64,000 bases of DNA from an uncultured Gammaproteobacteria bacterium (GTDB taxonomy: Bacteria > Patescibacteriota > Patescibacteriia > Veblenbacterales > UBA10138): contig CAYGDX010000002.1 of the NCBI GenBank assembly GCA_964348825.1, positions 80,609 to 144,608 of the forward strand, written 5' to 3'. Of this stretch, positions 9,945 to 45,548 are shown one piece after another. The position numbers and the translations under genes are program-made. The notes beneath the pieces were generated by a model that saw only the letters and a list, made by a program, of their open reading frames with translations, made no database searches and was not told the DNA's origin. The stretch's first letter is position 1; every line of letters starts with the position of its first letter.

Positions 9945-10060
9945 AAAACTATTTTAACACTATTACCTTACTTTTACTTAACACATCTATATATTCCCCC
10001 AAAAAACAAACAGTGCTATAATAAAGTTGCTCTTAAACCTAACCATTAATTTTATAGTTT

Positions 10061-11143: not shown

Positions 11144-11164
11144 GTAAATCTAAGGTAAGCTAAA

Positions 11165-11200
11165 AACAACCCTAAGCTACGTCGAGGGGTTGTTTTTTAT
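11165..11200 (+). terminator. rho-independent terminator of the 10061-11143 gene
   Basis: aacaaccc-N14-gggttgtt stem followed by a T-run. Confidence 0.5.
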
Positions 11201-11261
11201 TAAAAATAAAAAGGTCGTCTCAAATTTTAAAAACGACCTCCAGACACTGAATGTATTTTAC

Positions 11262-12011
11262 TTACTTAAACACAACAATCTCATTATATTTTGTTGCCGG
11301 TTCAAGCAAAGTAATAATTTTTTTAATTATTTCTTCTGGTTCTAAAAAATGACCAAACCTCATTATAAATGCTCGTTTCATTATTTCTACACTTACACCT
11401 CTTACTTTTGCTCGTTCTGAGATCTGCTTTTCGATTCTTTCACCCTTTATTGGACCAGGGCATAGAGCATATGCGCGCACGTCAATATTTCTATTTTTAT
11501 TAACACTGCCATACTCTTTTATCTCTGCATTAATAGTTTTAGATAGCCCGTTTACACCATGTTTAGTTATAGAATATCCCACCCTTTCAGCATATCCATT
11601 CAAACCAGCATTTGAGCTAATGTCTATAATTCGACCAAACCCAAATTTAAGCATATTTGGTAAGGCATACTTAGCTAGGAGTGTTGGCGCCAAAACATTA
11701 GTGTAAAACATTTGTAAAATTTCATCTGAATATATTTCACCGATTGATTTTGTTGGACCAAAATCAGCTGCAGCATTAATAAGTATCGAAGCGCTACTGG
11801 CATATTTGACAGCAAAAGACTCAACAGCTACACAATTAGACAAATCTAAACTAACCGCGGTTACTGAACATTTTTTAGAGAGCTCCTTTTGTACTAAACT
11901 TAATCTTTGAACATCGCGACCGGTAATCACCAAATTATTTTCCGCGGCCACTAAATTTTTAGCCACCATTTTTCCGATACCAGAAGAAGCACCTGTAATA
12001 ACTACATTCAT
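11262..12011 (-). CDS. SDR family oxidoreductase
   Basis: TGASSGIGK glycine motif and a YxxxK-type active-site region. Inserted between secY and adk. Confidence 0.7.
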   Translation of the reverse strand: MNVVITGASSGIGKMVAKNLVAAENNLVITGRDVQRLSLVQKELSKKCSVTAVSLDLSNCVAVESFAVKYASSASILINAAADFGPTKSIGEIYSDEILQMFYTNVLAPTLLAKYALPNMLKFGFGRIIDISSNAGLNGYAERVGYSITKHGVNGLSKTINAEIKEYGSVNKNRNIDVRAYALCPGPIKGERIEKQISERAKVRGVSVEIMKRAFIMRFGHFLEPEEIIKKIITLLEPATKYNEIVVFK

Positions 12012-12182
12012 ATTGTTAATCTCCGATTTTTGTTTAATTTACGAATTTCACTTTATCTTATCATAAAAACACATTTTGTCAATAGTATAAATTTGACTAA
12101 AATTAGCACAAAAAAGCCAGATATAATCTGGCCTTAAAAAACTAATAACTATTGGCTAGTGGCTAGTGGCTAGGAACTACAA

Positions 12183-25673: not shown

Positions 25674-27758
25674 TTATTCCTTCTTCTCTTTCTGTCCCAT
25701 AATTGTTTCCGCCACGTGACGCGGTACTTCAGAATAACGTTCAAATTCCATAGTATAGCTCGCTCGGCCTTGGGTCATTGAACGAAGCGCCGTAGCATAG
25801 CCAAACATTTCACCAAGTGGTACTGAAGCCTCAATCACCCTGAGTCCAATTCTTTCGCGTACTTCTTTAATCTGACCACGCTTAGAATTCATATCACCAA
25901 TTACATCACCCATATAATTTTCTGGCGTAACTACTTCCACTTTCATAATTGGCTCTAAGATAACTGGACCAGCTTGCTTACAGGCCGCTTGGAAAGCCAT
26001 TGAACCCGCAATTTTAAAGGCCTGTTCCGAAGAGTCAACATCGTGATATGAACCATCGTATACTGTGGCCACCACATCAACTACCGGATAACCAGCTAGC
26101 ACCCCATTATCAAGTGAGGCCTTAATACCTTTTTCAATTGCCGGAATAAATTCGCGAGGGATACTACCGCCCTTTACTTCATCTAAGAATTCAAAGCCTT
26201 TAGCACTTTCCGTTTGTGGTGATACTTTTATCCAACAATGGCCGTATTGACCATGGCCACCAGTTTGCCTAATATATTTACCTTCGGCTTTAGCTTCACG
26301 AGTAATAGTTTCTTTATAAGCCACTTGTGGTTGACCAACATTAGCTTCCACTTTAAATTCACGACGCATACGATCAACAATAATATCTAAATGCAATTCC
26401 CCCATCCCCCAAATAATAAGCTGTCCAGTTTCTTCGTTAGAACGCACGCGGAAAGTTGGGTCTTCTTCGGCCAATTTTTGCAAAGCCACGCCCATTTTTT
26501 CTTGATCAACTTTAGTTTTTGGTTCAATCGCGAGCGAAATAACTGGTTCAGGGAAAACAATTGATTCAAGTAGTACTGGGTGATCAGGATCACATAATGT
26601 ATTACCAGTGGTGGTAACTTTTAATCCCACTGCCGCGGCAATTTCACCAGCATAAACTTCTGACACATCTTCGCGAGTGTTGGCATGAAGTCGCACAATT
26701 CTACTAATGCGTTCTTTTTCACCATTGGAAGCATTCAAAACATAAGAACCGGCTTGCAAAGTTCCTGAATAAACTCGAAAGAAAGCAAGTTTACCTACAA
26801 AAGGATCTGAAGTAATTTTAAAAGCTAGGGCCGTAAAAGGCGCGGTATCAGAGGGTGGTCGTTCGAGCACTGCACCGGTTTTTACGTCATTGGCTTTTAC
26901 TGGCGGCACATCGAGTGGTGATGGTAAATAATCCACAATCGCATCTAGTAAAAATTGCAAACCTTTATTTTTTAAAGCTGAGCCACAAAATACTGGCACA
27001 ATTTTATTGGCGATTACTGCTTTTCTAAGTACCCGCTTTAAATCAGGAATCGGAATTTCTTTACCTTCCAAATAATTCTGAAGCATAGTGTCATCGTGCT
27101 CAGCAATCGCTTCAATTAATTTATGGCGATACTCTTCCACTTTCTCTTTCATATCAGCTGGTACATCGGTTTCTTCCCATTCTTTACCTAAATCATCTTT
27201 ATAAATAATAGCGCGACGAGTAAATAAATCAACCAAACCAGTGAATGTTTCGGCCGCGCCAATTGGTAATTGTAAAGGATGAGCATTTTTAGTCAGTCGT
27301 TCGTAAATTGAATCCATGTCGGCATAAAAATTTGCGCCCATACGATCCATTTTATTTATAAAAGCTAAGCGTGGTACACCGTAATCATCAGCGTAACGCC
27401 AATTAGTTTCTGATTGTGGTTCTACTCCAGCTACGCCATCAAAAATCACGGCCGCACCATCGAGTACGCGCAGTGACCTTTTAACTTCCACTGTAAAATC
27501 AATATGGCCTGGGGTATCAATCAAATTCATGCGCGTATCTTTCCAAAAACAAGTAGTAGCGGCGGCAGTAATGGTGATACCGCGTTCTTTTTCTTGTTCC
27601 ATCCAATCCATAGTGGCTTCACCTTCGTGCACTTCGCCAATCTTATGTTTTTTGCCAGTATAAAAAAGAATGCGCTCGGAAACTGTAGTTTTTCCAGCGT
27701 CAATGTGAGCAATAATACCGAAATTACGAGTGTGTTCTAAAGAATATTCACGAGGCAT
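25674..27758 (-). CDS. fusA: elongation factor G
   Basis: G-domain [14 protein letters not shown], and NKMD. True start at the internal Met (MPREYSLEH). The ORF track's upstream extension to 27878 looks spurious. Confidence 0.9.
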
Positions 27759-28006
27759 AGTTTGAAATCCTAAATCCGAATATCGAAATTCTAAATAAAA
27801 AATAAAACTTATTTTATAAAAAATCCAAAATGTTCTGAATCTAGAAGCTAGAATTTCGAAGTTAGATAAGTACAGCACTAATTCTAGATTCTAACTTCCC
27901 TGCCTGCCGGCAGGCAGGTATATTCTAGATTCGAGACAAATATTATTCATCTAACATTAAATCACGACGTTAAAATCATCAGTGAGTGATCACCTTGGTG
28001 AATAAC

Positions 28007-31984: not shown

Positions 31985-33196
31985 TTACAAAGACAATTTT
32001 TCTGCTATATAATCAACGTCTTTATCTCCCCGACCCGACAAGTTAACTATTACTACTTCACTATTTAACAAAGTCGGGGCCATTTTAATAATATATGCAA
32101 CAGCGTGGGAACTTTCTAACGCTGGAATTATTCCTTCTACTTTAGATAATTGCTGAAAAGCATCAATTGCTTCTTGATCGCTGACTGTAACATATTTTAC
32201 TCTTCCATTTTCTAATAAATCAGCGTGAATAGGCCCAACACCTGGATAATCTAAACCAGAAGCTATTGAATGAACCGGTAGTGGCTCTCCTTTATCATTT
32301 TGTAATAAATAAGTATACATGCCATGAATTGTGCCGGGCTTGCCTTTTGTTAAAGTGGCGGCATGTTCACCAGGTTTAAAACTACGCCCACTTGGCTCTA
32401 CTCCGATCATTTTTACATCATCATCTAAAAATTCGTTAAACAAACCAATTGCATTTGACCCGCCGCCCACACAAGCAACTAAATAATCGGGCAAACGATT
32501 TATTAATTCTAATATCTGTTTTCTGGCTTCACGGCCAACTATTGATTGAAAATCTCTTATCATCATAGGATAAGGGTGCGGCCCTACTACAGAACCAATA
32601 GCAAAAAACGTATCCTTATAATTCTGCAAGTAAGAAGCAAAAGCACTATCCACTGCGTCTTTTAAAGATCTCCCACCTTGATCAACCGGAACCACCTTAG
32701 CACCTAAAAGTTTCATACGAATAACATTGGGGTGCTGTTTGGCGATATCAATTGTTCCCATGTGAATTTCACAATCTAATCCCATAATTGCCGCAGCAGT
32801 AGCCACAGCTACACCATGTTGGCCAGCGCCAGTTTCAGCTAAAAGTTTTTTCTTTCCCATACGTTTAGCCAATAACGCTTCGCCTAAAGTATGATTTATT
32901 TTATGCGCACCAGTATGATTTAAATCTTCACGCTTAAAATAAATCTTCGCTCCCCCCAATTGCTCACTTAAACGCTTAGCAAAATATAGTGGCGAAGGTC
33001 TACCCACATAAGTACTCAAAAGTAATTTGAATTCATTTTGAAGACTTAAATCATTTTTAAACTCTTGATATGCTTCGGTTACTTCATCTAGAGCTAGTTT
33101 TAATTCTGGTGGAATAAATTGCCCGCCATATTTACCAAAGTATCCTTGACTATTAGGTAAAAATTTAAGTGATTCTTTTTTTTGATTGTTAAACAT
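31985..33196 (-). CDS. trpB: tryptophan synthase beta chain, stand-alone TrpB2-type
   Basis: PLP-enzyme motifs ([16 protein letters not shown]). 403 aa with a TrpB2-like N-extension. No other trp genes nearby. Confidence 0.8.
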
Positions 33197-33249
33197 AAAA
33201 TAAAATTAATAATAAAAAACTATAACCAAAGCCGCCAACAATAAGTGGC

Positions 33250-33345
33250 TTTATTTAAAAAACTGTAACGACGAAAAAATAAATTATTCATAATAAAACA
33301 CCTTCCACTTAAAAGTAAAAGGTGTGAATTTAAGATTTATTAATA
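33250..33345 (-). promoter_or_regulatory. attenuator-like leader upstream of trpB with mutually exclusive hairpins
   Basis: On the mRNA: AAAGGUGUG...CACACCUUU...AAGGUGUU followed by a U-run. The middle segment can pair either upstream (antiterminator-like) or downstream (terminator). Confidence 0.4.
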
Positions 33346-33404
33346 ATAAAACTACCCACACCTTTCGATTGGGTACCACCAATTTAATTTTAATTGATAA
33401 ATAA

Positions 33405-33725
33405 TCATACCTTAATTTTACTTAAAACTTTTTTAAACCCACCTGATTTACTATATTTCAATTCCCGCGCACCGCGACTTATGGTAGCTACTGCCACACC
33501 TAATCGATCACTCACTTCACGTATCGATAAACCTTTACAAAGTAATTTTACGATTTGCCAACGCAACGATAATTCGTTGTACTCTTTTGGCGTTAATAAA
33601 TCAGACAAAAAACTTTCTAGTTCCACTGTCGAAGAAAAATTACTTAACAAATTAGTAATTTCTCGACGAAATAACTCTTGTTTATATGATTGATTTTTAA
33701 CTAATTCTCTTCTACTCATACACAA
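33405..33725 (-). CDS. TrpR-like YerC/YecD family DNA-binding protein
   Basis: LTPKEYNELSLRWQIVKLL...GLSIREVSDRLGVAVATISRGAREL fits the Trp_repressor/YerC family. Immediately upstream of trpB on the same strand. Confidence 0.7.
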   Translation of the reverse strand: MCMSRRELVKNQSYKQELFRREITNLLSNFSSTVELESFLSDLLTPKEYNELSLRWQIVKLLCKGLSIREVSDRLGVAVATISRGARELKYSKSGGFKKVLSKIKV

Positions 33726-33761
33726 ACTTTAAATAATACATAGTTAATTATATTATTATCA

Positions 33762-33777
33762 CTGTACTAGTACAGTA
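33762..33777. promoter_or_regulatory. perfect 16-bp palindrome ACTGTACTAGTACAGT (trp-operator-like ACTAGT half-sites) upstream of the yerC-like gene
   Basis: Lies about 40 bp upstream of the regulator start. Contains GTACTAGTAC, resembling TrpR operator half-sites. Confidence 0.45.
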
Positions 33778-33939
33778 GCATGGGAACTTTAATAAGTCAA
33801 ACAATAATTGTGGATAATACTAATACCTAACTTAATTAAACAATTCTATCAACCAATAAGTTATAATCCACTTAAATAAAAACAACGGCCAATACATTTT
33901 TACCAGAAGTGATATTTTATTAAATTTACTAAACAAAAT

Positions 33940-33970
33940 AAAAAAGGCAATCAGAGATCAATTGCCTTAA
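33940..33970 (-). terminator. rho-independent terminator after the small-ORF cluster
   Basis: aaggcaat-N9-attgcctt stem followed on the minus strand by a U-run. Confidence 0.45.
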
Positions 33971-34003
33971 AAGATTATGTTAATTATTTTTGTTTTAAAA
34001 ATA

Positions 34004-34192
34004 TTACTCAATGTAGGGTCGAAATTGTTCCAGATAATATTCATCATCAAGTAAATCATTTGCATTAACGATCAACGCGCGGCTTGGGTTACAACAGATA
34101 CAAAAATTTCCCAATTGTTGTCGATCGTTACTACTGTATCCCCTTCCACTTTCCGGACATTTCCATTCTTCATTTGGAGATTTAATGCTCAT
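34004..34192 (-). CDS. small Cys-containing hypothetical protein (62 aa; CPESG...CICC)
   Basis: ORF, last of three tightly packed minus-strand small ORFs. Confidence 0.4.
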   Translation of the reverse strand: MSIKSPNEEWKCPESGRGYSSNDRQQLGNFCICCNPSRALIVNANDLLDDEYYLEQFRPYIE

Positions 34193-34208
34193 TACTTTCT
34201 CCTTTTTA

Positions 34209-34520
34209 TTACATATGAATTGTTAACTCTTCGCGGTGTACTTGCGGTTGTAATAATACAGGTGATTTTAATGACGATAAATTAAACAAATCTTCACTCG
34301 TTCTTATTGTTTGTTCGTCTATTTCATCATCTTCTGCAATTAGTGGCTGGTGTTTGTGGGTGCAAGCCGATCCAAAAATACCACCCAACCTACTCGTATC
34401 AAAACCTTGAAAGAAAAAACTACACCCTTGATGTAAACATAAAGTAATATTTTTTTCTTTATCAAAGGCAACCGAATGGCCTAAAATTCCACCTATTTTT
34501 TGATATCTCTTTTCTTCCAT
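34209..34520 (-). CDS. hypothetical protein with Cys/His cluster (103 aa)
   Basis: ORF. The stop abuts the upstream ORF (34522). Confidence 0.4.
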   Translation of the reverse strand: MEEKRYQKIGGILGHSVAFDKEKNITLCLHQGCSFFFQGFDTSRLGGIFGSACTHKHQPLIAEDDEIDEQTIRTSEDLFNLSSLKSPVLLQPQVHREELTIHM

Positions 34521-34521
34521 A

Positions 34522-34710
34522 CTATTCTGCCCCCTCCTGATCAGAATCAGGAAAAGTTTGTTTTGGTGGTTGAGGTGGTAATTCAGATTTTAGATCTAAA
34601 TCATCACCTGATGTATTGTTATAATGTTTCATAAAGTTTTCCTTTTGTTTTTTTTGGTTTTTAATTTTACTAATTAAATTGTTAAAAAACTGTTTTGGTA
34701 AAAAATTCAA
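34522..34710 (-). CDS. small hypothetical protein with acidic Pro-rich tail (62 aa, or 36 aa from internal Met)
   Basis: ORF, preceded by a hairpin at 34716-34746. Confidence 0.35.
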   Translation of the reverse strand: MNFLPKQFFNNLISKIKNQKKQKENFMKHYNNTSGDDLDLKSELPPQPPKQTFPDSDQEGAE

Positions 34711-34974
34711 CCACTCTTAGACAAGAGCGGTTGAAGGTAATTTTGAATTTATAATTATGCTTAATTTATACCTCGTCGCTCATTTTTGTGAATATCAAGA
34801 ATCAAACCATAAATCATGGCTTGCTTGACTACGAGCGGATTGATATTAAAACTTTGCATATCTAAAATAGAGATTAACATAAATAAAAAAATATGTAAAG
34901 CTCAAACTTATCCACAGAATAAAATAAAAAAGAGATGATACGCACCACCTCTTTTTAAAAATTATTTTTATTCC

Positions 34975-36048
34975 TTACCCAAGCCCGAGCACCTTTACCA
35001 TTTGCTTCACTAGCGAAACTACAATCGGTGGTGGTAGCAAACTATAACTATCTACTCCCGCATCATCTTTAATAGTCCAACGCGATTCTTTCACTATTAC
35101 TTTACCGCCCTCGCCCATTTCATAATCATAGCCCGGTGTAATTTCATAATCATTCACGCTTGCCTCACCTTCCTCAACTGGAATAGCATTGCGCAAATAA
35201 ATTTTCGGAATACCATGAAGCCCTAAAAGCTGTTGCATAATTTTATCATCCATTTCCAAACGCTCACGAATTGGATCAATACCTAAATTATCACCTTCTT
35301 TAGGCACCATTCGCGCACCGGCGCAAACCGGATTATCACATTTCAAGTAAAATTCCTTAGTTGCTTCATCGTACCCAGCATCTTTGGTCGCCATTAATTT
35401 TAAGTTGCGTGGTGTTTTACAAAGTGGACAAATCACGCGGTACTTAATGCGCTCGTTAATTACCGTATTAGGTAAGCTAATAAAAACCAGAAAATCTGGA
35501 TCCTCGCGGTAGCCAATTATTTCTTTAAGGAATAAAGCGTAGCTCACTTGATCCATAGCGCGTGGAAAACCATCAATAAAAATGGCTTGCTTAGGGCGCT
35601 TGGAAATTTCGTATTTAATTAAAGTTAAAATAAGTTCAGATGATACGAGTTTAGATTGACTGCGACCTAAAATAAGATCAATGGTTTCTTCTGGTGAATG
35701 AAAGCCACGATAATTATTTTTAATAAACTCTACCAACTCTTTCTGACCCTCAGGTGTTTCTACTAAATGATGTGCGTCGCGCACGATATCGCCCACTGAC
35801 AAATGACCGACATTACTTGCGCCCACCGCTTCCATAAATAATTTAGAATATGTACCCTTGCCGGAATTTTTTTTACCCAAGAGGAAAGCGACAAAAGTTT
35901 TACCTTCATCTAAATATTTTTTGATAAGCTTAAGCTCGGCACCCATTTTCAAATCAAAATAATCCCGTCGGCTTTTCGGATCATTCAAATCAAATCGCGG
36001 ACTACCTTCTAACTTCGTCTTAAAAACTGGAAAATTATTCAAATCCAT
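34975..36048 (-). CDS. long adenylate-kinase-fold NMP kinase paralog with N- and C-terminal extensions
   Basis: P-loop GKKNSGKGT, NMP-binding VGDIVRDA, IDGFPR, and Cys4 lid (CPLCK...CDNPVCAG), plus ~55-aa N-terminal and ~100-aa C-terminal extra regions. Confidence 0.65.
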   Translation of the reverse strand: MDLNNFPVFKTKLEGSPRFDLNDPKSRRDYFDLKMGAELKLIKKYLDEGKTFVAFLLGKKNSGKGTYSKLFMEAVGASNVGHLSVGDIVRDAHHLVETPEGQKELVEFIKNNYRGFHSPEETIDLILGRSQSKLVSSELILTLIKYEISKRPKQAIFIDGFPRAMDQVSYALFLKEIIGYREDPDFLVFISLPNTVINERIKYRVICPLCKTPRNLKLMATKDAGYDEATKEFYLKCDNPVCAGARMVPKEGDNLGIDPIRERLEMDDKIMQQLLGLHGIPKIYLRNAIPVEEGEASVNDYEITPGYDYEMGEGGKVIVKESRWTIKDDAGVDSYSLLPPPIVVSLVKQMVKVLGLG

Positions 36049-36154
36049 AAATATTAGTTAAAAATAAAAATACTTAGCGTTTATATGTTAACATAAAATA
36101 AATAAAAAGCAAGCGGTGAATTTTCACCGCTTGAATATTGTTTAGAATGTTTAT

Positions 36155-36514
36155 TCACCCCTTACGTATGGCAAGAACTTTATTAAGAGCTTCTCTTACT
36201 GTTTGTTCATTAAAATTACCACGTTGTAAATATGGCATAGCCCCGGGCGGATTACTATCCACATCCATAAAAATAACTTGCGCTCTTTCTTCATTCAAAC
36301 GTAAAGCGTATTCGGTAATCCATTCCGGTTGACCTTCTCTAGTAGAACAAATAACAACATCGAACTCTTGTTTAGTGTGAATAACCGATTCTACTTTAAA
36401 AGGATCATCACAAAATGTTACCGCGTGCCCTAATTTTTTATTTAATACCGTTTGAGCTGTTTCTCGCCATTGTTGTTTTTCTTCAAGAAATAATATTTTT
36501 AAACTTTTATTCAT
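36155..36514 (-). CDS. degenerate CheY-like receiver (pseudo-receiver) domain protein
   Basis: Receiver-like beta-alpha pattern (KILFLEE, DVVICS), but the phospho-acceptor Asp positions are substituted. Confidence 0.4.
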   Translation of the reverse strand: MNKSLKILFLEEKQQWRETAQTVLNKKLGHAVTFCDDPFKVESVIHTKQEFDVVICSTREGQPEWITEYALRLNEERAQVIFMDVDSNPPGAMPYLQRGNFNEQTVREALNKVLAIRKG

Positions 36515-36591
36515 TATTTTACCTTTGTTGTTTATTTTGATTATTTTTGATTTTGTTATTTTTTAAAGTTTATCTAACAATTAAACTAAAG

Positions 36592-37452
36592 TCAACGCCT
36601 CACCCATACCTCCCCATTACTCTTAAACCTAATATCCCCTTCTTCATCTGTCCGCAAAACATTTGGGATTAAGTTTTTCAAACGCTCCACAACTTCTTGA
36701 TGTGGATGGCCATAGCGATTACCACTACCCACTGGAATTATGGCGTAGTCCGGTGCCACCGCTTTTAAAAATTCTGGGCTAGATGACGTGCGGCTACCTT
36801 GATGCGCTACTTTTAAAATTTGAGATTTAACATTATAACCCGCGGCTAAAATTGCGCCTTCATTTTTTACTGGCGTATCGCCCGTAAATAAAACTGAAGT
36901 TTTGCCATAATTCACGCGATTCATAATTGACGTATCATTCAGCTCCCCTACTTTTTGCCCTTCATAAGAAAATGGTGGCCAAAATACATCCATTGTTACG
37001 CCACCAGCAAATTTTATCAGCTGACCTTGCTGTGGGCTAATCACGGAAATTTTTTTATCTTTTATAATTCGTAAAAATTCCAAATACTCCGGCGTAGTGT
37101 GTAGTGCGCCAGTCAGCATTACTTGCTTCACTTCATAGCGATTTAGTATATGAACGAGCCCAGTTACGTGGTCGGCGTGCGGATGCGATAAAATCATTAA
37201 ATCAATCGTACGCTCGTACCAAGGTAAAATTTGCCCTAATTTTCTAAGTATACCCCGATCCGGCCCACCATCTATTAAAATTACTTGCCCCGCCGGCGTA
37301 CGCACTACATGAGCATCACCTTGACCAACATCAATAAAAGTGAGCTGGAGATATTTGTTTTGTGATTGTTGGTAGAAAAATATAGATAACAAAACAATAA
37401 CGATTGCTATGGCGAGATATAAAAATCTTCTTGAAATTATAAATTTTATCAT
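36592..37452 (-). CDS. ComEC C-terminal metallo-beta-lactamase domain protein (split from ComEC), N-terminal TM anchor
   Basis: HPHADHVTG (HxHxDH) MBL motif. Lies directly downstream of the ComEC membrane-domain gene. Confidence 0.7.
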   Translation of the reverse strand: MIKFIISRRFLYLAIAIVIVLLSIFFYQQSQNKYLQLTFIDVGQGDAHVVRTPAGQVILIDGGPDRGILRKLGQILPWYERTIDLMILSHPHADHVTGLVHILNRYEVKQVMLTGALHTTPEYLEFLRIIKDKKISVISPQQGQLIKFAGGVTMDVFWPPFSYEGQKVGELNDTSIMNRVNYGKTSVLFTGDTPVKNEGAILAAGYNVKSQILKVAHQGSRTSSSPEFLKAVAPDYAIIPVGSGNRYGHPHQEVVERLKNLIPNVLRTDEEGDIRFKSNGEVWVRR

Positions 37453-37672
37453 GATAATTTTTGCAAATATCTAATTTCTAATCACTAATTTCTAAAAATG
37501 ACTAATATCTAATAACTAAATTTTGGGGATTGGGTTTTGGGATTTTTTAGAAATTAGTCCGCCAGCTGGTGGATTAGTCATTAGTGATTTATTATTTCTG
37601 GATTCCCGCCTACGCGGGAATGACAACTACTATAACTCTTACCTGCCTCGCCGGCAGGCAGGATCTCCACTC

Positions 37673-39091
37673 TTATTTATCCGCCGATGAGGCGCGACTC
37701 TTACTTAATATCCACTTCCCTCCTATTATATAGATTATTATCACCACCAGCCACACCCAAATTGATCCGCCAACTTGTGCATTAGGTAACTGCCCAAACC
37801 ATTCCACAATAAAAACAATATAAGCTAGGGCGAAAGTTGAAAGCCAAATTGCCATAGCGCCCAAAAGTGGCCACGTTGCTACTACCGTTGTAATTAAACC
37901 TAAAATAAATACGGTGGCAACTACCGGCCCCACTAATAAATTTACCACCACACTAACGAGCGACACTTGATCTAAGCGTAATAAAATAATGGGCAAAGTA
38001 ACAAGTGTAGCCGAAATAGTTTGTAAAAAAATTTCTTTTAAATTTATTAGGTCAGGTAATTTTTTAAAAATATTTTCAAGTTTTGGTGCCAGTACTGTTA
38101 AGCCAATCATAGCGGCAAAGGAAAGTTCAAATCCTAAATCTAAAATCAAACGTGGATCAAATAAAAGCATCGTGGCTGCCGCACCAAGTAAAATATTCCA
38201 CGGTTCACTTTTCCGACCTACTAAATGCCCAAATTGAATTAACGATGCCATAATACCAGCGCGCAGTACCGCTGGCTCTGCGCCAGTAAAAACCACAAAC
38301 AAAGCAATTAAACTAATTACCACTATACTTGCTTGCCTGCGCCATAAACCTATTCCTAAAAATAAATAAAATAAAATTTGACTAAGCACCATTACATTAA
38401 AGCCCGACACTGCTAAAATATGTGAGGTGCCAGTGGTGCGGAAACTTTGCAATAAATCTTTGGGTAATCCAGCATCGTCACCCCACAGCATTCCAGTGAG
38501 TAAAGAAGCGTATGGTTCAGCTAAATTTGATTTGATAGTTACCCCAGCTAAATCACGAGCTTGAAGTAAAGTACGTTTTAAACTCCATTTGCCATCACTT
38601 AGGAAAGATAAATCAGGAAAAGCACATTCGCGATAAATATTTTTTAAACGATAATAATCAGCGGTAATTTCGGTTACATTTTTACAACGCACTTTTATCT
38701 CTTGCCCAAAATAAAATTCAGGAAATGGTTTAGTAGTCAATTGAATTTTACCAACACTAAAACCAGGTGACGATACCACATAACGAATTATTTTATCACC
38801 CGCTCGCGGCGCCGCTATAATTTCCGCTGTAAATTCACGTGGACCAACAAAAATATCAGCTGGCGGAGCAATAGGTAAATATAAAGCCCGCCACCAAAGT
38901 ATAGTTGCGGCCAGTAATCCTAAAATAAAAAGCTGGCGTGGTGCCAGCTTTAAACTCATAAAAATTATAGCGGTGATTATTAGCAATACCCACCACCAAC
39001 TTAAATTATAAAACGACCACCAGTTGAATAATAACGCGCCGACTATAATTCCTATGGCTGCAGTGCGGAATATAATAGAAGGATGATGCAT
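37673..39091 (-). CDS. comEC: ComEC/Rec2 DNA internalisation channel, membrane portion (DUF4131 + competence domain)
   Basis: 472 aa polytopic membrane protein with the ComEC competence-domain pattern. Lacks the C-terminal MBL domain, which is encoded separately. Confidence 0.7.
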   Translation of the reverse strand: MHHPSIIFRTAAIGIIVGALLFNWWSFYNLSWWWVLLIITAIIFMSLKLAPRQLFILGLLAATILWWRALYLPIAPPADIFVGPREFTAEIIAAPRAGDKIIRYVVSSPGFSVGKIQLTTKPFPEFYFGQEIKVRCKNVTEITADYYRLKNIYRECAFPDLSFLSDGKWSLKRTLLQARDLAGVTIKSNLAEPYASLLTGMLWGDDAGLPKDLLQSFRTTGTSHILAVSGFNVMVLSQILFYLFLGIGLWRRQASIVVISLIALFVVFTGAEPAVLRAGIMASLIQFGHLVGRKSEPWNILLGAAATMLLFDPRLILDLGFELSFAAMIGLTVLAPKLENIFKKLPDLINLKEIFLQTISATLVTLPIILLRLDQVSLVSVVVNLLVGPVVATVFILGLITTVVATWPLLGAMAIWLSTFALAYIVFIVEWFGQLPNAQVGGSIWVWLVVIIIYIIGGKWILSKSRASSADK

Positions 39092-39448: not shown

Positions 39449-40553
39449 TTACTTACCAGCCACTTGCCTCAACCTCGCCTCAATAAACTCTATCAACTTA
39501 CCCTCAAGCACACTGTCGGGATCATTTGATTCAAATCCCGTGCGATGATCTTTCACCAACTTATATGGATGTAAAACATACGAACGCGCTTGATTGCCCC
39601 ACTCAGCACTTTTAAATTCACCACGCAACTTTTTCTTATCACTTTGTAATTTATCTTCAGCCAATTGCCAAAGTTTAGCGCGTAGATATTTCATAGCTTG
39701 TTCTTTATTTTGCATTTGTGAACGCTCATTTTGACATTGTACTGTGATACCAGTAGGAATGTGCACAATGCGCACGGCAGAATAAGTTGTGTTCACCGAC
39801 TGCCCGCCATGCCCACCCGACATAAAAGTATCAACCCGTAAATCTTTAGGATCAATTTCCACTGCCGCTGTATCAGGTAATTCTGGTAAAACTTCTACCA
39901 GAACAAATGAAGTATGACGCATTTTTTCGGCATCAAATGGAGAAATGCGCACCAACCGATGCACACCCGCTTCGCATTTTAAATATCCATAAGCCAGTCG
40001 CCCTGAAATTTTCAGTAAACAACTTTTTATACCAGCTTCCTGCCCACGAGATTCATCTAAAATCTCTACGTGCCACTTCTGCTCGTCACAAAAACGTAAA
40101 TACATTCGCCGCAGCATTTCAGCCCAATCTTGCGCGTCGGTACCACCAGCCCCAGCATGAATGGAAAGCAAAGCACTGACTTCGTCATATTCCCCGCCTA
40201 GAAGTTTTTTAAATTCCAACACTTCTAAACGCTTAAGTAAATCGGTATAAACTTTTTCAATTTCCTCGCGCAAAGAAACTAAACCATCGGTTTGGTCAGC
40301 ACTAGCCAATTCTAAAACTTCGGCCACCTCTTTAGTGAGTGACTCAAAAGATATTAAATCTTTTTGCAACGAATCGTGGGTACTAGAAATTTCCCGCGCC
40401 TGATTTTGATCCGCCCAAAAATCAGAAGCCGACATAGCTATTTCCAGCGCCGCAATTTTAGCTTTAAGACCGTTTGGGTCAAAGCCACCTCCCCGCCTCA
40501 AGGACACGGGATTCAAGCGCCTTAAGGTTACGAACTAAATCTGCTTCATGCAT
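39449..40553 (-). CDS. prfB: peptide chain release factor 2, with programmed +1 ribosomal frameshift
   Basis: GGQ and SPF motifs. ORF0 (MHEADLVRNLKALESRVLEAGRWL) ends at CUU UGA C at 40478-40484, preceded by an SD-like GGGAGGUGG. The +1 frame continues as LDPNGLKAKIAALE... Confidence 0.9.
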
Positions 40554-42126: not shown

Positions 42127-42822
42127 CTACTTGCTACTAGCTATTTGCTCCGTGCTAACTTCAGTGGAAGTTTTAAGCCACCGCACTCCCAAATAAGCCA
42201 GTGGAGTTTCAATAATTGAAAAAAATATTTTAAGTAACCAGTACGGCAAAATCAGCGCCACCATTTTACTTAAATCATAAGCGGGTGTGACTAAATAAAA
42301 TGCCACAAAAATAAATACCGTGGTATCAACCAGCTGACTAATAAAATTAGATAAATTGGTGCGTAGCCAAAATAATTTATTAGCCCACATCTGCCGCATT
42401 TTATTAAACACTAAAACATCGAGAAATTCACTTAAAGCAAAAGCGGTTAAACTAGCTAAAATAATCCGCAGTGAATTGCCAAACACACTTTGATAGGCCT
42501 CATTGTTATGATAAAAACTAGCCGATGGTAAAATTCTCGCCACATATACCATTACAAATAAAAAAATTAAAACATAAAGTCCACTGCGCACAAAATTACG
42601 CGCCCGTTCCTTACCTACTACTTCACTCACTACATCATTTATCACAAAAGTTATTGGGAGGGCCAAAATCCCCACTGAAGTTGCTACACCAAAAATAGTA
42701 ATTAATTTACTACCCAATAACTCAGCGGCCACTACCGCCGCAATATATATGGCCAGTAAATAATCCAAACGCTGATCAAGTTTTAACATAAGATTTTTTG
42801 TAATTAAGAAGTAAGGTACCAC
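42127..42822 (-). CDS. VUT-family transporter (YhhQ / queuosine-precursor transporter family, DUF165)
   Basis: Matches YhhQ across the conserved C-half (ASLTAFALSEFLDVLVFNKMRQ...LRTNLSNFISQLVDTTVFIFVAF). The start probably lies at a downstream Met, as the track's start overlaps the upstream gene. Confidence 0.7.
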   Translation of the reverse strand: MVPYFLITKNLMLKLDQRLDYLLAIYIAAVVAAELLGSKLITIFGVATSVGILALPITFVINDVVSEVVGKERARNFVRSGLYVLIFLFVMVYVARILPSASFYHNNEAYQSVFGNSLRIILASLTAFALSEFLDVLVFNKMRQMWANKLFWLRTNLSNFISQLVDTTVFIFVAFYLVTPAYDLSKMVALILPYWLLKIFFSIIETPLAYLGVRWLKTSTEVSTEQIASSK

Positions 42823-43303
42823 GCTTATTTAAACGCTTCACACTCAAGAGCACAAAACTACGCGTGGGTATGAGTTTATTAAACAATGGTAAACCATTAC
42901 CAAAAATCAATGGTTCAATGGTTAATTGAATTTCATCGATTTTATTTTTTAGTAAGAACCAATTATAAACTTCGGTGCCACCTAGCACGGCTATTTTAAA
43001 ATATTTATATTTTTTTAACACGCTAAATAAATTAACCTTAGCTGGATTAACATAAATCACATTGCCGCGCTCTACTAAAATATCGTACCGGCGCGTAAAC
43101 ACAATACAATTTCTATTTACCAGTCGATCCTTAACTAACTTAAAAGTATTAGCACCAATAATTATAACATCGCACTTATCCATTTCAGCGTGCAAATAAT
43201 CTTTGTCTTCCGGGCTTCCCCAATCGCTAATATGATTTTTACGCTTAGCAATTTTACCATCAATCGTAACGACCGCGAGAAGAGTAAAATATAGTTGTTT
43301 CAT
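42776..43303 (-). CDS. dihydrofolate-reductase-family protein (RibD C-terminal domain-like reductase)
   Basis: TIDGKIA...SDWGSPEDKDYLH...CDVIIIGANTF...AVLGGTEVYNWFL...IEPLIFGNGLPLF...LLNYK fits RibD_C/DHFR-like proteins. Confidence 0.65.
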   Translation of the reverse strand: MKQLYFTLLAVVTIDGKIAKRKNHISDWGSPEDKDYLHAEMDKCDVIIIGANTFKLVKDRLVNRNCIVFTRRYDILVERGNVIYVNPAKVNLFSVLKKYKYFKIAVLGGTEVYNWFLLKNKIDEIQLTIEPLIFGNGLPLFNKLIPTRSFVLLSVKRLNKRGTLLLNYKKSYVKT

Positions 43304-44022
43304 AATTTTTTTTCAAAAACTTTAAGAAGTGATGCATAAATATCATCACCATCTGGAATTATTAAATCGGCCGCGAAATTTTCATCACTAAAAACAATAC
43401 TAGGCACATTTTTTATAATGGCGAGTGGTGTTTGCTCATTGCCCTCACCCATTACAAGAACTGCGGCGGCGGCTAAAGCATCGGGTATATTTACGGTGGT
43501 CATTTTTAATTTCCGTCCAAAAATATCAGGGCTACCCCGATAATCATAGAGTGGTTTAAAACCAGAAAATGCAATTGATATGCCAATCACACCCCAGCGC
43601 ATTGGTATAGTATGACTATCAGAAATTATAACGCCTAAATTTTTCAAGTGATCTCGCTTTTTTAAATACTGACCAATCTCGCGGGCCGCCGCTGTTGGAT
43701 TATTGGGCCACAAAATATAATAACCATCGGCATTGCTTTCATCAATACCAGCATTTGGTATTAGAGTATTTAATTTTATGGTAATAGCTACACCCGCTGT
43801 ATTACAACTGGGTGGTAAATATTTTTCGGCTTCACTTTTAACTAAATCTTCTTTCACTGCTTCACTTATTAAAACACAACGACCTTGGTGAATACTAACA
43901 ACTTTTGAAGTAACTACTACAATATCACCCTCGGCAAGTTCCGGTAAAGCTGAATCTAAAACTTCATATAAATTATCTTGAGGTGGTTTTAAAACACGAG
44001 TTTTAATAGGATAAATATTCAT
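43300..44022 (-). CDS. CofE-like gamma-glutamyl ligase (F420-0:glutamyl ligase family; FolC2-type)
   Basis: GDIVVVTSKVVSIHQGRCV and IISDSHTIPMRWGVIGISIAFSGFKPLYDYRG match CofE-family motifs. A 4-nt overlap with the downstream DHFR-like gene suggests an operon. Confidence 0.6.
   Translation of the reverse strand: MNIYPIKTRVLKPPQDNLYEVLDSALPELAEGDIVVVTSKVVSIHQGRCVLISEAVKEDLVKSEAEKYLPPSCNTAGVAITIKLNTLIPNAGIDESNADGYYILWPNNPTAAAREIGQYLKKRDHLKNLGVIISDSHTIPMRWGVIGISIAFSGFKPLYDYRGSPDIFGRKLKMTTVNIPDALAAAAVLVMGEGNEQTPLAIIKNVPSIVFSDENFAADLIIPDGDDIYASLLKVFEKKL

Positions 44023-44267: not shown

Positions 44268-45548
<1,281 letters not shown>

What the first reader, a model, noticed from the sequence alone, without database searches (positions are those of the whole stretch)
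34975..36048. Second, extended adenylate-kinase-fold kinase in addition to canonical adk
Seen: all Adk hallmarks are present (P-loop GKKNSGKGT, NMP-binding VGDIVRDA, IDGFPR, Cys4 zinc lid CPLCK...CDNPVCAG) but with a ~55-aa N-terminal extension and a ~100-aa C-terminal domain (GIPKIYLRN...VKVLGLG) that have no counterpart in bacterial Adk. Established knowledge: bacteria normally use structurally unrelated CMP (Cmk) and UMP (PyrH) kinases, whereas eukaryotic UMP-CMP kinases are Adk-fold. Inference: this could be an Adk-fold pyrimidine or deoxynucleotide monophosphate kinase filling a gap in a reduced genome.
Basis: partly seen in the sequence, partly recalled or inferred. Interest (0 to 1): 0.55.

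Follow-up and report, generated by a model that had tools for sequence, protein, structure and literature searches.

The report
Extended second nucleotide kinase of Patescibacteria
Next to its ordinary adenylate kinase, this tiny-genome (Patescibacteria/CPR) bacterium has a larger, unusually conserved and apparently uncharacterised adenylate-kinase-fold enzyme that usually sits beside the DNA-uptake genes. It is a good candidate for the nucleotide kinases these bacteria are reported to lack.

Summary
Window 34975..36048 (-) is an intact 357-aa ORF ("K2") with an adenylate-kinase (Adk) fold. A canonical adk lies at 9179..9826.

K2 looks catalytically competent. In 157 unique homologues the P-loop Lys, the equivalents of E. 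coli R36, R88, R119, R123, R167, D84 and Q92, and three zinc-lid Cys are invariant; the fourth Cys is present in 155.

K2 is not an orthodox Adk:
- It fails every NCBIfam adk cut-off.
- Its P-loop reads GKKNSGKGT instead of GxPGxGKGT.
- The adenine-reading Thr31 is always replaced, by Val or Ile in 151 of 157.
- The NMP domain carries about 25-30 extra residues and the lid about 13.
- An N-terminal extension of about 50 aa precedes the core.

The family was found only in Patescibacteria: at least 452 GTDB species, with divergent members down to 21% identity. It is about as conserved as ribosomal protein S7 and more conserved than canonical Adk.

Its genes sit just downstream of ComEC and its metallo-beta-lactamase partner in about half of the loci. 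NUDIX, Ndk or Tmk genes are often adjacent.

Best reading: a (d)NMP salvage kinase with altered or relaxed base specificity. The substrate is unproven, and the genome-wide kinase complement could not be checked.

Verdict: a new variant of a known kind, of moderate interest.

The parts
34975..36048 (-). K2: a 357-aa extended adenylate-kinase-fold nucleoside-monophosphate kinase paralogue (whole ORF, including the stop codon)
   Evidence: ORF list. Pfam ADK 50 bits. AF2 model pLDDT 87.6. Foldseek matches to Adks. 100% identical protein P0001 found on a 353-kb contig.
35899..36048 (-). N-terminal extension, aa 1-50: an extended tail carrying a conserved FPxFKTK motif, then a long helix at 24-47
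   Evidence: AF2 secondary structure, pLDDT 84-95. Conserved in alignment A1 (R27, Y30, F31, K34 invariant). The helix with Y30 is kept in divergent members, which lack the tail 1-23.
35851..35877 (-). P-loop GKKNSGKGT, aa 58-66: a valid Walker A motif, but Lys-Asn replaces the Pro-Gly of the Adk signature GxPGxGKGT
   Evidence: Sequence. K60, G63 and K64 are invariant in 157 of 157. Alignment to E. coli Adk.
35638..35805 (-). Enlarged NMP-binding domain, aa 82-137: the HLSVGDIVR motif (R90 = E. coli R36; V85 in place of Thr31) and the KLV segment
   Evidence: hhalign to Adk. R90 in 157 of 157; position 85 is Val or Ile in 151 of 157 and never Thr.
35659..35754 (-). Family-specific insertion inside the NMP-binding domain, aa 99-130, with the near-invariant NYRG motif (Y113, R114, G115)
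   Evidence: Gap relative to Adk. Y113 152/157, R114 152/157, G115 154/157. pLDDT dips to 63-72 here.
35548..35574 (-). DGFPRAMDQ, aa 159-167: D159 = E. coli D84, R163 = R88, Q167 = Q92
   Evidence: All three are invariant in 157 of 157. Alignment. Roles of these residues in Adk from PMC3369945.
35260..35451 (-). Enlarged Cys4 zinc lid with catalytic residues, aa 200-263: R200, R204, C207/C210/C237/C242, K250, D253, R263
   Evidence: R200, R204, C207, C210, C237, K250 and R263 in 157 of 157; C242 in 155 of 157. A CxxC...Cx(2-4)C pattern in 32 of 32 family members, including the most divergent. About 13 aa longer than the lid of the window's own Adk.
35038..35187 (-). Beta-rich insertion of about 50 aa (aa 288-337) between the last core strand (282-286, KIYLRN) and the terminal helix. 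This is where canonical Adk has the short loop that reads ATP's adenine.
   Evidence: AF2 strands 305-311, 317-323, 325-327 and 333-337; the same strand pattern when this piece is modelled alone. Conserved R286, N287, Y301, E302, W324, D328, S336. No fold match in PDB.
34978..35037 (-). C-terminal helix, aa 338-357, equivalent to the terminal helix of the Adk core
   Evidence: AF2 helix 339-353. Equivalence rests on the order of elements and; it is an inference.
36110..36133 (-). Terminator-like hairpin upstream of K2, after the 119-aa ORF
   Evidence: Terminator scan: 10-bp stem with 6 GC pairs and a T-run.
34927..34956 (-). Terminator-like hairpin immediately downstream of the K2 stop codon. 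Together with the upstream hairpin, it suggests K2 is its own transcription unit in this genome.
   Evidence: Terminator scan; sequence.
36592..37452 (-). Stand-alone metallo-beta-lactamase protein, corresponding to the ComEC C-terminal nuclease-type domain. It is the most frequent upstream neighbour of K2 across the family.
   Evidence: Pfam Lactamase_B 1.7e-14. Immediately upstream of K2 on the same strand in 36 of 67 metagenome loci and 12 of 77 GTDB loci.
37673..39091 (-). ComEC channel protein (DUF4131 + Competence domains in its orthologues), upstream of the MBL gene
   Evidence: Orthologues in related loci carry PF13567 + PF03772. ComEC or MBL lies within three upstream genes in 38 of 77 and 40 of 67 loci.
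9179..9826 (-). Canonical adenylate kinase (adk), 215 aa, with a Cys4 lid, near secY and map
   Evidence: Pfam ADK 150 bits and ADK_lid 39.7 bits. tblastn 40% identity to E. coli Adk.

Best explanation
K2 is a catalytically competent nucleoside-monophosphate kinase of the adenylate-kinase fold. It is a Patescibacteria-specific paralogue derived from long, zinc-lid bacterial Adk.

**Inferred mechanism, by homology.** The P-loop (K64, T66) and D159 hold Mg-NTP. A (d)NMP binds in the NMP domain (R90, R163, Q167). The Cys4-zinc lid closes and brings in R200, R204, K250/R246 and R263. The gamma-phosphate passes in-line from NTP to NMP, giving two NDPs, and the reaction is reversible.

**How it differs from Adk.** Every element that surrounds the two bases has been rebuilt:
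- Thr31 is replaced by Val or Ile.
- The NMP domain is enlarged and carries an NYRG motif.
- The lid is longer.
- The P-loop has an invariant extra Lys.
- A beta subdomain of about 50 aa replaces the loop that reads ATP's adenine.

**Proposed role (inferred, not shown).** K2 has an altered or relaxed base specificity. It probably acts on (d)NMPs other than AMP, or in addition to it. In cells that make no nucleotides de novo, it would feed salvaged nucleotides to Ndk and the polymerases. Those nucleotides would come from DNA taken up through ComEC, or from RNA breakdown.
For: **Fold and family**
- Pfam ADK is above its cut-off.
- The closest solved relatives are Zn-lid Adks, at E 6e-21 with a family profile.
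- The AF2 model is confident, and Foldseek returns Adks as its top 50 hits.

**Catalytic competence**
- K64, R90, D159, R163, Q167, R200, R204, K250, R263 and three lid Cys are invariant in 157 of 157 sequences. This holds down to 21% overall identity.

**Departure from Adk**
- The best NCBIfam adk model scores 69.8 bits against a cut-off of 168. None of 21 adk models passes.
- The Thr31 position is never Thr. In Adk, Thr31 OG1 binds adenine N7 (PMC3369945).
- The insertions are described.

**Strong selection over the whole length**
- K2 is 77% identical to the window copy on the 876-kb contig, where canonical Adk is 60%.
- It is about as conserved as S7, and more conserved than RF2, ComEC and the M50 protease in the same loci.
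- The insertions are conserved at 54-65%, against 66% overall.

**Genomic context**
- ComEC or MBL lies within three upstream genes on the same strand in 38 of 77 GTDB loci and 40 of 67 metagenome loci.
- NUDIX occurs in 24 of 80 loci, usually adjacent.
- In members only 27-42% identical, Ndk is adjacent or close, with ComEA-ComEC-MBL and once Tmk (L092, L093, L094, L096, L097).

**Coexistence with adk**
- Shown by the window and by 6 metagenome loci.

**Physiological gap**
- cmk, gmk and tmk are poorly represented in Parcubacteria (PMC4508563).
- Gmk is absent from the cultivated strain OT8, and 93% of Patescibacteria genomes lack de novo nucleotide synthesis (preprint).
- ComEC has been proposed as a nucleotide source in CPR (PMC9166423).
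Against: - There are no biochemical data. No substrate can be read from sequence.
- Gln167 (E. coli Gln92, which helps select AMP over GMP in Adk) is invariant, so the acceptor could still be AMP or dAMP.
- Conserved gene order with ComEC, AspRS and RF2 may reflect inherited synteny of housekeeping genes rather than shared function. In this window K2 is bracketed by terminator-like hairpins, so it is not co-transcribed with ComEC here.
- The NUDIX neighbours are heterogeneous, and none passes a specific NCBIfam cut-off.
- The kinase complement of this genome could not be examined.
- The placement of the beta insertion at the ATP-adenine loop rests on an AF2 model whose coordinates I could not inspect.
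- The role of that loop in Adk (Lys200; Rogne et al. 2018, PNAS) is recalled from memory. The paper could not be opened.
Confidence: 0.55

Rival explanations
1. K2 is simply a second, AMP-specific adenylate kinase isozyme. It would have a regulatory or structural specialisation, such as different kinetics, stability or oligomerisation, and no new substrate.
For: - Gln167 (E. coli Gln92) and Gly160 (Gly85), two of the three AMP-adenine contacts listed in PMC3369945, are invariant.
- The best sequence and structure matches are all adenylate kinases.
- Many organisms carry several Adk isozymes (general knowledge).
Against: - Thr31 is never retained.
- The ATP-adenine loop is replaced by a conserved 50-aa subdomain, and the NMP domain is nearly doubled.
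- K2 fails all adk equivalog cut-offs.
- A redundant isozyme would not be expected to be more conserved than the canonical enzyme in genomes under strong reduction.
Confidence: 0.2
2. K2 uses the Adk fold as an ATPase or kinase acting on, or regulated by, a macromolecule, not on free NMPs. Candidates are a ribosome or translation factor (as with Fap7/AK6 in ribosome maturation) or the DNA-uptake machinery. The N-terminal helix and beta subdomain would be docking surfaces.
For: - Whole-length conservation is similar to ribosomal protein S7 and above RF2.
- Three surface elaborations have no known fold match.
- K2 is persistently close to aaRS genes (AspRS 36 of 77 immediately upstream, often overlapping by 4 bp), RF2 and the S12-S7-EF-G operon.
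Against: - The complete NMP-acceptor site (GD..R90, R163, Q167) is invariant. This is unexpected if no NMP is bound.
- Divergent members associate with Ndk and Tmk, which are small-molecule nucleotide enzymes.
- Nothing directly indicates a partner.
Confidence: 0.12
3. K2 works mainly in the reverse or NDP-level direction: as an NDP dismutase (2 NDP -> NTP + NMP) or as a substitute NDP kinase. It would extract NTPs from NDPs released by polynucleotide phosphorylase from host RNA. This is the energy route proposed for Patescibacteria.
For: - It is the same chemistry as an NMP kinase run backwards.
- The preprint 10.64898/2026.06.21.733656 proposes PNPase plus Adk or Cmk as the route to NTPs.
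- The invariant extra Lys60 in the P-loop adds positive charge near the phosphates.
- Neither a CPR-type nor an E. coli-type ndk was found in the window or in any core-subfamily locus.
Against: - Ndk sits next to K2 in divergent members, which argues for complementary roles rather than substitution there.
- No PNPase was seen near K2 in about 160 loci.
- Direction of flux cannot be read from sequence.
Confidence: 0.13

Closest known systems
Long-type bacterial adenylate kinase with a Cys4 zinc lid (e.g. Bacillus subtilis 1P3J, Geobacillus 1ZIN, reconstructed ancestors 5G3Y/5G3Z)
   Same: - Same fold.
- Walker A Lys, the GD..R and DGFPR...Q motifs, the ER..R lid entry, a CxxC...C..C zinc lid and the lid-exit Arg are all shared.
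- These are the best sequence and structure matches.
   Different: - K2 is 357 aa against about 215.
- It has an N-terminal extension of about 50 aa, about 25-30 extra aa in the NMP domain, about 13 in the lid, and a 50-aa beta subdomain in place of the ATP-adenine loop.
- The P-loop Pro-Gly is Lys-Asn, and Thr31 is Val or Ile.
- The R156 equivalent is ambiguous (R246 in 85%; K250 invariant).
- It fails the NCBIfam adk cut-offs and Pfam ADK_lid.
Eukaryote-type UMP-CMP kinases (yeast Ura6 1UKY, Dictyostelium 1QF9, human CMPK1 1TEV; TIGR01359)
   Same: - Adk fold.
- An 'HLS-x-GD..R' start to the NMP motif, with a non-Thr residue at the Thr31 position.
- From memory: yeast Ura6 also has 'GFPRKMDQ', close to K2's 'GFPRAMDQ'.
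- They show that the Adk fold can serve pyrimidine NMPs.
   Different: - They have a short lid without zinc. K2 has a long zinc lid.
- The matches are weaker than to Adk: 1e-13 against 6e-21 with the profile, and 40.9 bits against the TIGR01359 cut-off of 207.6.
- K2 is not a member of this family.
Bacterial CMP kinase (Cmk, PF02224)
   Same: A P-loop NMP kinase in which, from memory of the E. coli structure, a sizeable insertion in the NMP-binding domain accompanies a change of base specificity. This parallels K2's enlarged NMP domain.
   Different: K2 has no detectable sequence match to PF02224. Cmk has a short lid and no zinc. The insertions are not shown to be homologous.
Phage T4 gp1 deoxynucleotide monophosphate kinase (a broad-specificity dNMP kinase)
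   Same: It works like the role proposed for K2: one P-loop kinase phosphorylating several dNMPs to supply DNA synthesis. This is from general knowledge.
   Different: A different subfamily. K2 matches no PHROG family, and no K2 gene was found in 2.9 million viral contigs. The resemblance is functional and hypothetical only.
AK3/AK4-type GTP:AMP phosphotransferases (1ZD8, 2AK3)
   Same: Adk-fold enzymes whose phosphate-donor base specificity differs from ATP. They appear among K2's PDB matches.
   Different: They change donor specificity with point differences in a normal-length loop. K2 replaces the loop with a whole subdomain.

Membership tests
Adenylate kinase (Adk, EC 2.7.4.3; Pfam PF00406, TIGR01351, NCBIfam adk equivalogs) | Match to the Pfam ADK domain above the gathering score | tested here: met
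   50 bits against a cut-off of 26.8, in two stretches.
Adenylate kinase (Adk, EC 2.7.4.3; Pfam PF00406, TIGR01351, NCBIfam adk equivalogs) | Score above the curated cut-off of an NCBIfam/TIGRFAM adk model | tested here: not met
   The best is TIGR01351 at 69.8 bits against 168. All 21 adk models (TIGR01351 plus 20 equivalogs) fall far below their cut-offs. The window's own adk is the canonical one.
Adenylate kinase (Adk, EC 2.7.4.3; Pfam PF00406, TIGR01351, NCBIfam adk equivalogs) | P-loop signature GxPGxGKGT | tested here: not met
   K2 reads GKKNSGKGT. The Walker A pattern GxxxxGKGT is kept, but Pro-Gly is replaced by Lys-Asn, with K60 invariant in 157 of 157.
Adenylate kinase (Adk, EC 2.7.4.3; Pfam PF00406, TIGR01351, NCBIfam adk equivalogs) | Catalytic residues K13, R36, D84, R88, R119, R123, R156, R167 (E. 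coli numbering) | tested here: met
   K64, R90, D159, R163, R200, R204 and R263 are invariant in 157 of 157. The R156 equivalent is ambiguous: R246 in 133 of 157, or the invariant K250.
Adenylate kinase (Adk, EC 2.7.4.3; Pfam PF00406, TIGR01351, NCBIfam adk equivalogs) | AMP-adenine contacts Thr31 and Gln92 | tested here: inconclusive
   Gln167 (= Q92) is invariant. The Thr31 position is Val or Ile in 151 of 157 and never Thr. Roles of these residues are from PMC3369945.
Adenylate kinase (Adk, EC 2.7.4.3; Pfam PF00406, TIGR01351, NCBIfam adk equivalogs) | Short loop between the last core strand and the terminal helix that reads ATP's adenine (the Lys200 region) | tested here: not met
   The AF2 model places a conserved beta insertion of about 50 aa (288-337) there. 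The role of this loop in Adk is recalled from Rogne et al. 2018 and was not re-read.
Adenylate kinase (Adk, EC 2.7.4.3; Pfam PF00406, TIGR01351, NCBIfam adk equivalogs) | ATP:AMP phosphotransferase activity | not testable with these tools
   This needs an enzyme assay.
Zinc-lid ('long') subtype of Adk (Pfam ADK_lid PF05191) | Four zinc ligands in the lid, and a match to the ADK_lid model | tested here: inconclusive
   Cys207/210/237/242 are present. A CxxC...Cx(2-4)C pattern occurs in 32 of 32 diverse members. PF05191 is not matched, and the lid is about 13 aa longer than in the window's Adk.
Eukaryote-type UMP-CMP kinase family (TIGR01359) | Score above the family cut-off, and a short lid | tested here: not met
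   40.9 bits against 207.6. K2 has a long zinc lid.
Bacterial Cmk (PF02224), Tmk (PF02223), Gmk, PyrH | Sequence match to the family model | tested here: not met
   None of these models appears among K2's Pfam or NCBIfam hits at E <= 1.
Unnamed Patescibacteria 'extended Adk-like' family (PGAP: 'nucleoside monophosphate kinase'; IMG: 'adenylate kinase family enzyme') | Full-length architecture of about 320-370 aa: N-terminal helix, xxKxxGK P-loop, enlarged NMP domain, DGFPR...Q, Cys4 lid with invariant K250, and a beta insertion before the C-terminal helix | tested here: met
   - The top 120 homologues are 62-100% identical over 90-100% of the length.
- 452 GTDB species encode a relative.
- Divergent full-length members down to 21% identity share the layout.
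Anti-phage defence or phage-encoded kinases | Match to PADLOC or PHROGs models, or presence on viral contigs | tested here: not met
   No PADLOC hit, no PHROG hit, and no relative in IMG/VR.

The most novel reading that the evidence does not exclude
K2 is the long-sought 'missing' NMP kinase of Parcubacteria-type Patescibacteria. It would be a single, broad-specificity (d)NMP kinase in which a new beta subdomain and an enlarged NMP domain replace Adk's adenine-reading elements. One enzyme would then phosphorylate several (d)NMPs, perhaps with several NTP donors, or dismutate NDPs. This would substitute for Cmk, Gmk or Tmk. It would also couple ComEC-mediated DNA uptake or RNA scavenging directly to the cell's NTP and dNTP pools.
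Probability: 0.3. Interest if true: 0.75.

Novelty: new variant of a known kind. Interest (0 to 1): 0.57.

Why it matters
Patescibacteria/CPR form a large share of bacterial diversity. They mostly cannot make nucleotides, and how they turn scavenged nucleotides into NTPs and dNTPs is still debated. A 2015 genome survey called it 'puzzling' that cmk, gmk and tmk are poorly represented in Parcubacteria while adk is well represented (PMC4508563).

K2 is a concrete, testable candidate for that gap:
- It is widespread, in at least 452 species.
- It is under selection as strong as for a ribosomal protein.
- It keeps a complete phosphotransfer machinery.
- It has rebuilt base-binding elements.
- It lies next to the DNA-uptake genes.

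If K2 is a multi-substrate (d)NMP kinase, it would revise metabolic reconstructions of CPR genomes. It would also supply a marker gene for this lifestyle and show a new way to re-engineer specificity on the much-studied Adk scaffold. If it is only an AMP kinase isozyme, the interest is modest.

Tried and rejected
**Searches that could not run or found nothing**
- I modelled the C-terminal piece alone (aa 276-357, pLDDT 79) and searched PDB with Foldseek. The best hit was E = 1.2, so no fold assignment was possible.
- PHROGs and PADLOC gave no hits. The IMG/VR scan found no relatives. I rejected a phage or defence origin.
The class-level distribution of the divergent subfamily is therefore unresolved.
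- Literature searches for this protein in CPR or Patescibacteria found no description. A search for the Thr39 mutagenesis work on AK1 found nothing. Rogne et al. 2018 could not be opened.

**Search for other nucleotide kinases**
- A second tblastn with CPR Ndk and Tmk taken from L092-L097 covered the window and the 98 loci fetched by then. It matched only the divergent-member loci those queries came from.
- The 10-kb flanks beyond both window ends hold no NMP kinase.
- This does not settle the genome-wide question.

**Interpretations rejected**
- Pseudo-kinase: rejected because the catalytic residues are invariant.
- N-terminal extension as a start-codon artefact: rejected because residues 5-50 are conserved at the protein level in 28 homologues.
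- Membership of the eukaryotic UMP-CMP kinase family: rejected.
- Assigning the NUDIX neighbours to MutT, NudG or a similar type: not possible, because all scores are far below the cut-offs.
Full report
**1. What is there**

The ORF list shows one intact ORF at 34975..36048 on the minus strand: ATG start, 357 aa. I call it K2.
- Pfam ADK matches above its gathering score: 50 bits against 26.8, E 4.5e-13.
- The best solved relatives are Bacillus-type zinc-lid adenylate kinases. They score E about 1e-8 with the single sequence and 6e-21 with a family profile.
- An AlphaFold2 model built on 29 homologues is confident: mean pLDDT 87.6, pTM 0.85. Its top 50 Foldseek matches in the PDB are all adenylate kinases, E about 1e-9, with TM-score up to 0.67 normalised to the target.
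- A canonical 215-aa adk lies at 9179..9826 (-), near secY and map. It scores 150 bits on Pfam ADK plus ADK_lid.

**2. Anatomy, corrected**

Profile alignment to the window's own Adk and to E. coli Adk, read with the model's secondary structure, gives this layout:
- **N-terminal extension, aa 1-50.** A confident extended tail carries a conserved FPxFKTK motif. A long helix follows at 24-47.
- **P-loop, aa 58-66.** It reads GKKNSGKGT.
- **NMP-binding domain, aa 82-137.** It is about twice the usual size. The extra part is roughly 99-130 and holds a near-invariant Y113-R114-G115.
- **DGFPRAMDQ, aa 159-167.**
- **Lid, aa 200-263.** It has four Cys (207, 210, 237, 242) and is about 13 aa longer than in the window's Adk.
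- **Post-lid helix, aa 258-275.**
- **Last core strand, aa 282-286 (KIYLRN).**
- **Beta-rich insertion, aa 288-337.**
- **Terminal helix, aa 339-353.**

The C-terminal piece modelled alone keeps the strand pattern of the insertion (pLDDT 79), though residues 282-285 are modelled as helix rather than strand. It has no significant fold match in the PDB: the best Foldseek hit is E = 1.2.

The equivalence of the flanking strand and helix with the Adk core rests on the order of elements. I could not inspect coordinates, so it is an inference.

**3. Is it an active enzyme?**

I collected 157 unique family sequences from GTDB genomes, JGI metagenomes and the divergent representatives, and aligned them.

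| K2 residue(s) | E. coli equivalent | Conservation |
|---|---|---|
| K64 | K13 | 157/157 |
| R90 | R36 | 157/157 |
| D159 | D84 | 157/157 |
| R163 | R88 | 157/157 |
| Q167 | Q92 | 157/157 |
| R200 | R119 | 157/157 |
| R204 | R123 | 157/157 |
| R263 | R167 | 157/157 |
| K250 | none assigned | 157/157 |
| C207, C210, C237 | lid zinc ligands | 157/157 |
| C242 | lid zinc ligand | 155/157 |

- All 32 diverse members of alignment A2 have a CxxC...Cx(2-4)C pattern.
- The R156 equivalent is ambiguous. R246 is present in 133 of 157, or the invariant K250 one turn later may fill the role.

The 'catalytically dead' refutation fails. K2 almost certainly binds Mg-NTP and a phosphate acceptor and transfers a phosphoryl group.

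**4. Why it is not an ordinary Adk**

- No NCBIfam adk model accepts it. The best is TIGR01351 at 69.8 bits against a cut-off of 168. Pfam ADK_lid is not matched.
- The Adk P-loop signature GxPGxGKGT is replaced by GKKNSGKGT. K60 is invariant in all 157 sequences.
- In E. coli Adk, Thr31 OG1 binds N7 of AMP's adenine. Gly85 O and Gln92 OE1 bind N6, which selects AMP over GMP (PMC3369945). In K2, Gln167 and Gly160 are kept. The Thr31 position is Val or Ile in 151 of 157 and never Thr.
- From memory, eukaryotic UMP-CMP kinases carry Ala at this position, and a Thr-to-Ala change in AK1 raised activity on pyrimidine NMPs. I could not retrieve that paper. It is a lead, not a test.
- The 50-aa insertion occupies the loop that, from my memory of Rogne et al. 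2018 (PNAS 115:3012; not readable here), reads ATP's adenine through the Lys200 backbone. The residues that open the insertion, R286 and N287, are nearly invariant (145 and 153 of 157).

Every element around both bases has therefore been rebuilt while the phosphate chemistry is frozen. This is the pattern expected for a change of nucleotide specificity. It does not say what the new specificity is.

**5. Distribution and conservation**

- The exact protein is on a 353-kb contig. The top 120 database homologues are 354-367 aa (one truncated at 323 aa), 62-100% identical over 90-100% of the length. Where named, they are 'nucleoside monophosphate kinase [Patescibacteria ...]' or 'adenylate kinase family enzyme'.
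- A scan of one genome per GTDB species found 452 species with a relative. The records whose titles carry a specific lineage name are Patescibacteria lineages: Doudna-, Lipton-, Komeili-, Wolfe-, Jorgensen-, Giovannoni-, Buchanan- and Colwellbacteria, and Paceibacterota. A 99%-identical copy is in 'Patescibacteria group bacterium H52-bin160_1'. Some TPA assemblies carry titles such as 'uncultured Gammaproteobacteria bacterium', which look like submission defaults.
- A search of 1.84 billion 50%-identity representatives found only 393 hits at E <= 1e-3. Among them are full-length members of 320-372 aa at 21-43% identity with the same layout. The two of these that carry an organism name are Patescibacteria.
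- No relatives occur in 2.9 million viral contigs.
- K2 is strikingly conserved. On the same 876-kb contig, K2 is 77% identical to the window copy and canonical Adk only 60%. In loci that hold both proteins, K2 (median 56.5%) is about as conserved as ribosomal protein S7 (58.4%). It is more conserved than RF2, ComEC, the MBL protein and the M50 protease.
- The insertions are conserved almost as well as the core: 54-65% against 66% overall.

**6. Genomic context**

In this window the order on the minus strand is RF2 (39449..40516), ComEC (37673..39091), a stand-alone metallo-beta-lactamase protein (MBL, 36592..37452), a 119-aa receiver-like ORF, and then K2. K2 is bracketed by terminator-like hairpins at 36133..36110 and 34956..34927.

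Across 80 GTDB loci a common order emerges: RF2 - ComEC - MBL - (AspRS, a cyclophilin or a response regulator) - K2 - (NUDIX) ... M50 - S12 - S7 - EF-G.

| Neighbour of K2 | Frequency |
|---|---|
| AspRS immediately upstream, often overlapping K2 by 4 bp | 36 of 77 GTDB loci |
| NUDIX anywhere in the locus | 24 of 80 GTDB loci (20 adjacent) |
| ComEC or MBL within three upstream genes, same strand | 38 of 77 GTDB loci |
| ComEC or MBL within three upstream genes, same strand | 40 of 67 JGI metagenome loci |
| MBL immediately upstream, same strand | 36 of 67 JGI metagenome loci |

The link survives deep divergence:

| Locus | Member | Identity to window K2 | Arrangement |
|---|---|---|---|
| L094 | P0133 | 37% | PPIase - ComEA - ComEC - MBL - K2 |
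| L092 | P0123 | 42% | Ndk directly precedes K2 |
| L093 | P0235 | 27% | ComEA - ComEC - MBL - ArgRS - phosphoesterase - Ndk, converging on K2 |
| L096 | P0169 | 30% | ComEA - ComEC - MBL - ArgRS - Tmk - Ndk, converging on K2 with a 6-bp gap |
| L097 | P0180 | 29% | ComEA - ComEC - ArgRS ... Ndk, two genes from K2 |

ComEC-mediated DNA uptake has been proposed as a nucleotide source for CPR bacteria (PMC9166423). Ndk, Tmk and NUDIX are nucleotide-pool enzymes. The context therefore points to nucleotide salvage.

There are caveats:
- These are compact genomes with conserved housekeeping order.
- The aaRS, RF2 and ribosomal neighbours are equally persistent.
- In this window K2 is not co-transcribed with ComEC.

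**7. The physiological gap**

[quoted passage not shown] They speculated about relaxed Adk specificity. In the portion of their core-gene table that is held as text, adk and pgk are the only kinases listed.
- A 2026 preprint reports that 93% of Patescibacteria genomes lack de novo nucleotide synthesis. It reports that the cultivated strain OT8 lacks Gmk. It also proposes that NTPs are regenerated from RNA-derived NDPs by Adk or Cmk.

K2 is an obvious candidate for these missing activities. I found no paper that mentions it.

I could not test the gap in this genome. The window, 20 kb of flanks and about 1.1 Mb of related loci contain no Cmk, Gmk, Tmk, PyrH or Ndk homologue, apart from those next to divergent K2 members. 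That sample is confined to regions around K2 and covers only a fraction of any genome.

**8. Verdict**

- **Shown:** a real, intact second Adk-fold kinase, specific to Patescibacteria and very strongly conserved. It has a complete catalytic apparatus and rebuilt base-binding elements, and it coexists with canonical adk.
- **Inferred:** it is an NMP kinase with altered or relaxed specificity that serves (d)NMP salvage. I put confidence at about 0.55 for this combined statement, and higher for 'active phosphotransferase' alone.
- **Rivals:** an AMP-specific isozyme (0.2); an NDP-level dismutase or Ndk substitute (0.13); a macromolecule-directed ATPase or kinase (0.12).
- **Classification:** it works like an Adk but fails several membership tests for Adk proper and for UMP-CMP kinases. 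I file it as a new variant of a known kind.
partly supported. The direction is right. The substrate and the genome-level gap are unproven. The eukaryote-like UMP-CMP kinase analogy and the 'appended C-terminal domain' are not correct as stated.

Noticed in passing
window 36592..39091 (-): ComEC is split. The channel part (DUF4131 + Competence in its orthologues) is one gene at 37673..39091. The metallo-beta-lactamase part is a separate 286-aa protein with its own N-terminal membrane helix, at 36592..37452. The same split recurs in most related loci.
   Followed up: partly
window 36155..36514 (-): A 119-aa ORF between the MBL gene and K2 has no Pfam or PADLOC hit. It occupies the slot where several related genomes have a bona fide Response_reg receiver. 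By eye it looks like a degenerate receiver domain, for example 'ILFLEE' where DD is expected.
   Followed up: partly
window 34004..34710 (-): Three small ORFs (62, 103 and 62 aa) lie downstream of K2 with no family hits. They fill the position where many relatives have a NUDIX hydrolase. The last one is Cys-rich (CPESG...CICCNPS). Several terminator-like hairpins are interspersed. There are 12 terminator-like sites in 33300..37600, against 2.9 expected.
   Followed up: partly
window 31985..33725 (-): A lone trpB-like gene (403 aa) sits next to a Trp-repressor-family (PF01371) small protein. The TrpR-like gene recurs downstream of K2 in several other Patescibacteria loci.
   Followed up: no
window 25674..27878 (-): The mechanical EF-G ORF starts at a GTG and carries about 40 odd, hydrophobic N-terminal residues before 'MPREYSLEH...'. 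The true start is probably the internal Met, so the long form is an ORF-calling artefact.
   Followed up: no
window 44280..45548 (+) and 60727..61776 (-): Two purine interconversion genes lie in the same window: an adenylosuccinate synthetase (classic [12 protein letters not shown]-terminus) and an adenosine/AMP-deaminase-family protein (Pfam A_deaminase). This genome therefore keeps some purine salvage steps.
   Followed up: no
L092 6399..6999; L093 7991..8611; L096 1107..1700; L097 10607..11191: The Ndk genes next to divergent K2 members are unusually long (194-206 aa against about 143 aa in E. coli). In L092 the Ndk is split into two ORFs (148 + 59 aa), which suggests a frameshift or a sequencing error.
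   Followed up: partly
window 9826..13466: The usual secY-adk-map order is interrupted. A short-chain dehydrogenase (11262..12011, -) and a 360-aa, signal-peptide-bearing, Thr/Val-rich protein on the opposite strand (10061..11143) lie between secY and adk.
   Followed up: no
window 42776..44022 (-): An F420-0:gamma-glutamyl-ligase-family gene (PF01996, 142 bits) is followed by, and overlaps by 4 bp, a RibD_C/DHFR-like gene. These are unexpected cofactor-type genes for a genome of this kind.
   Followed up: no
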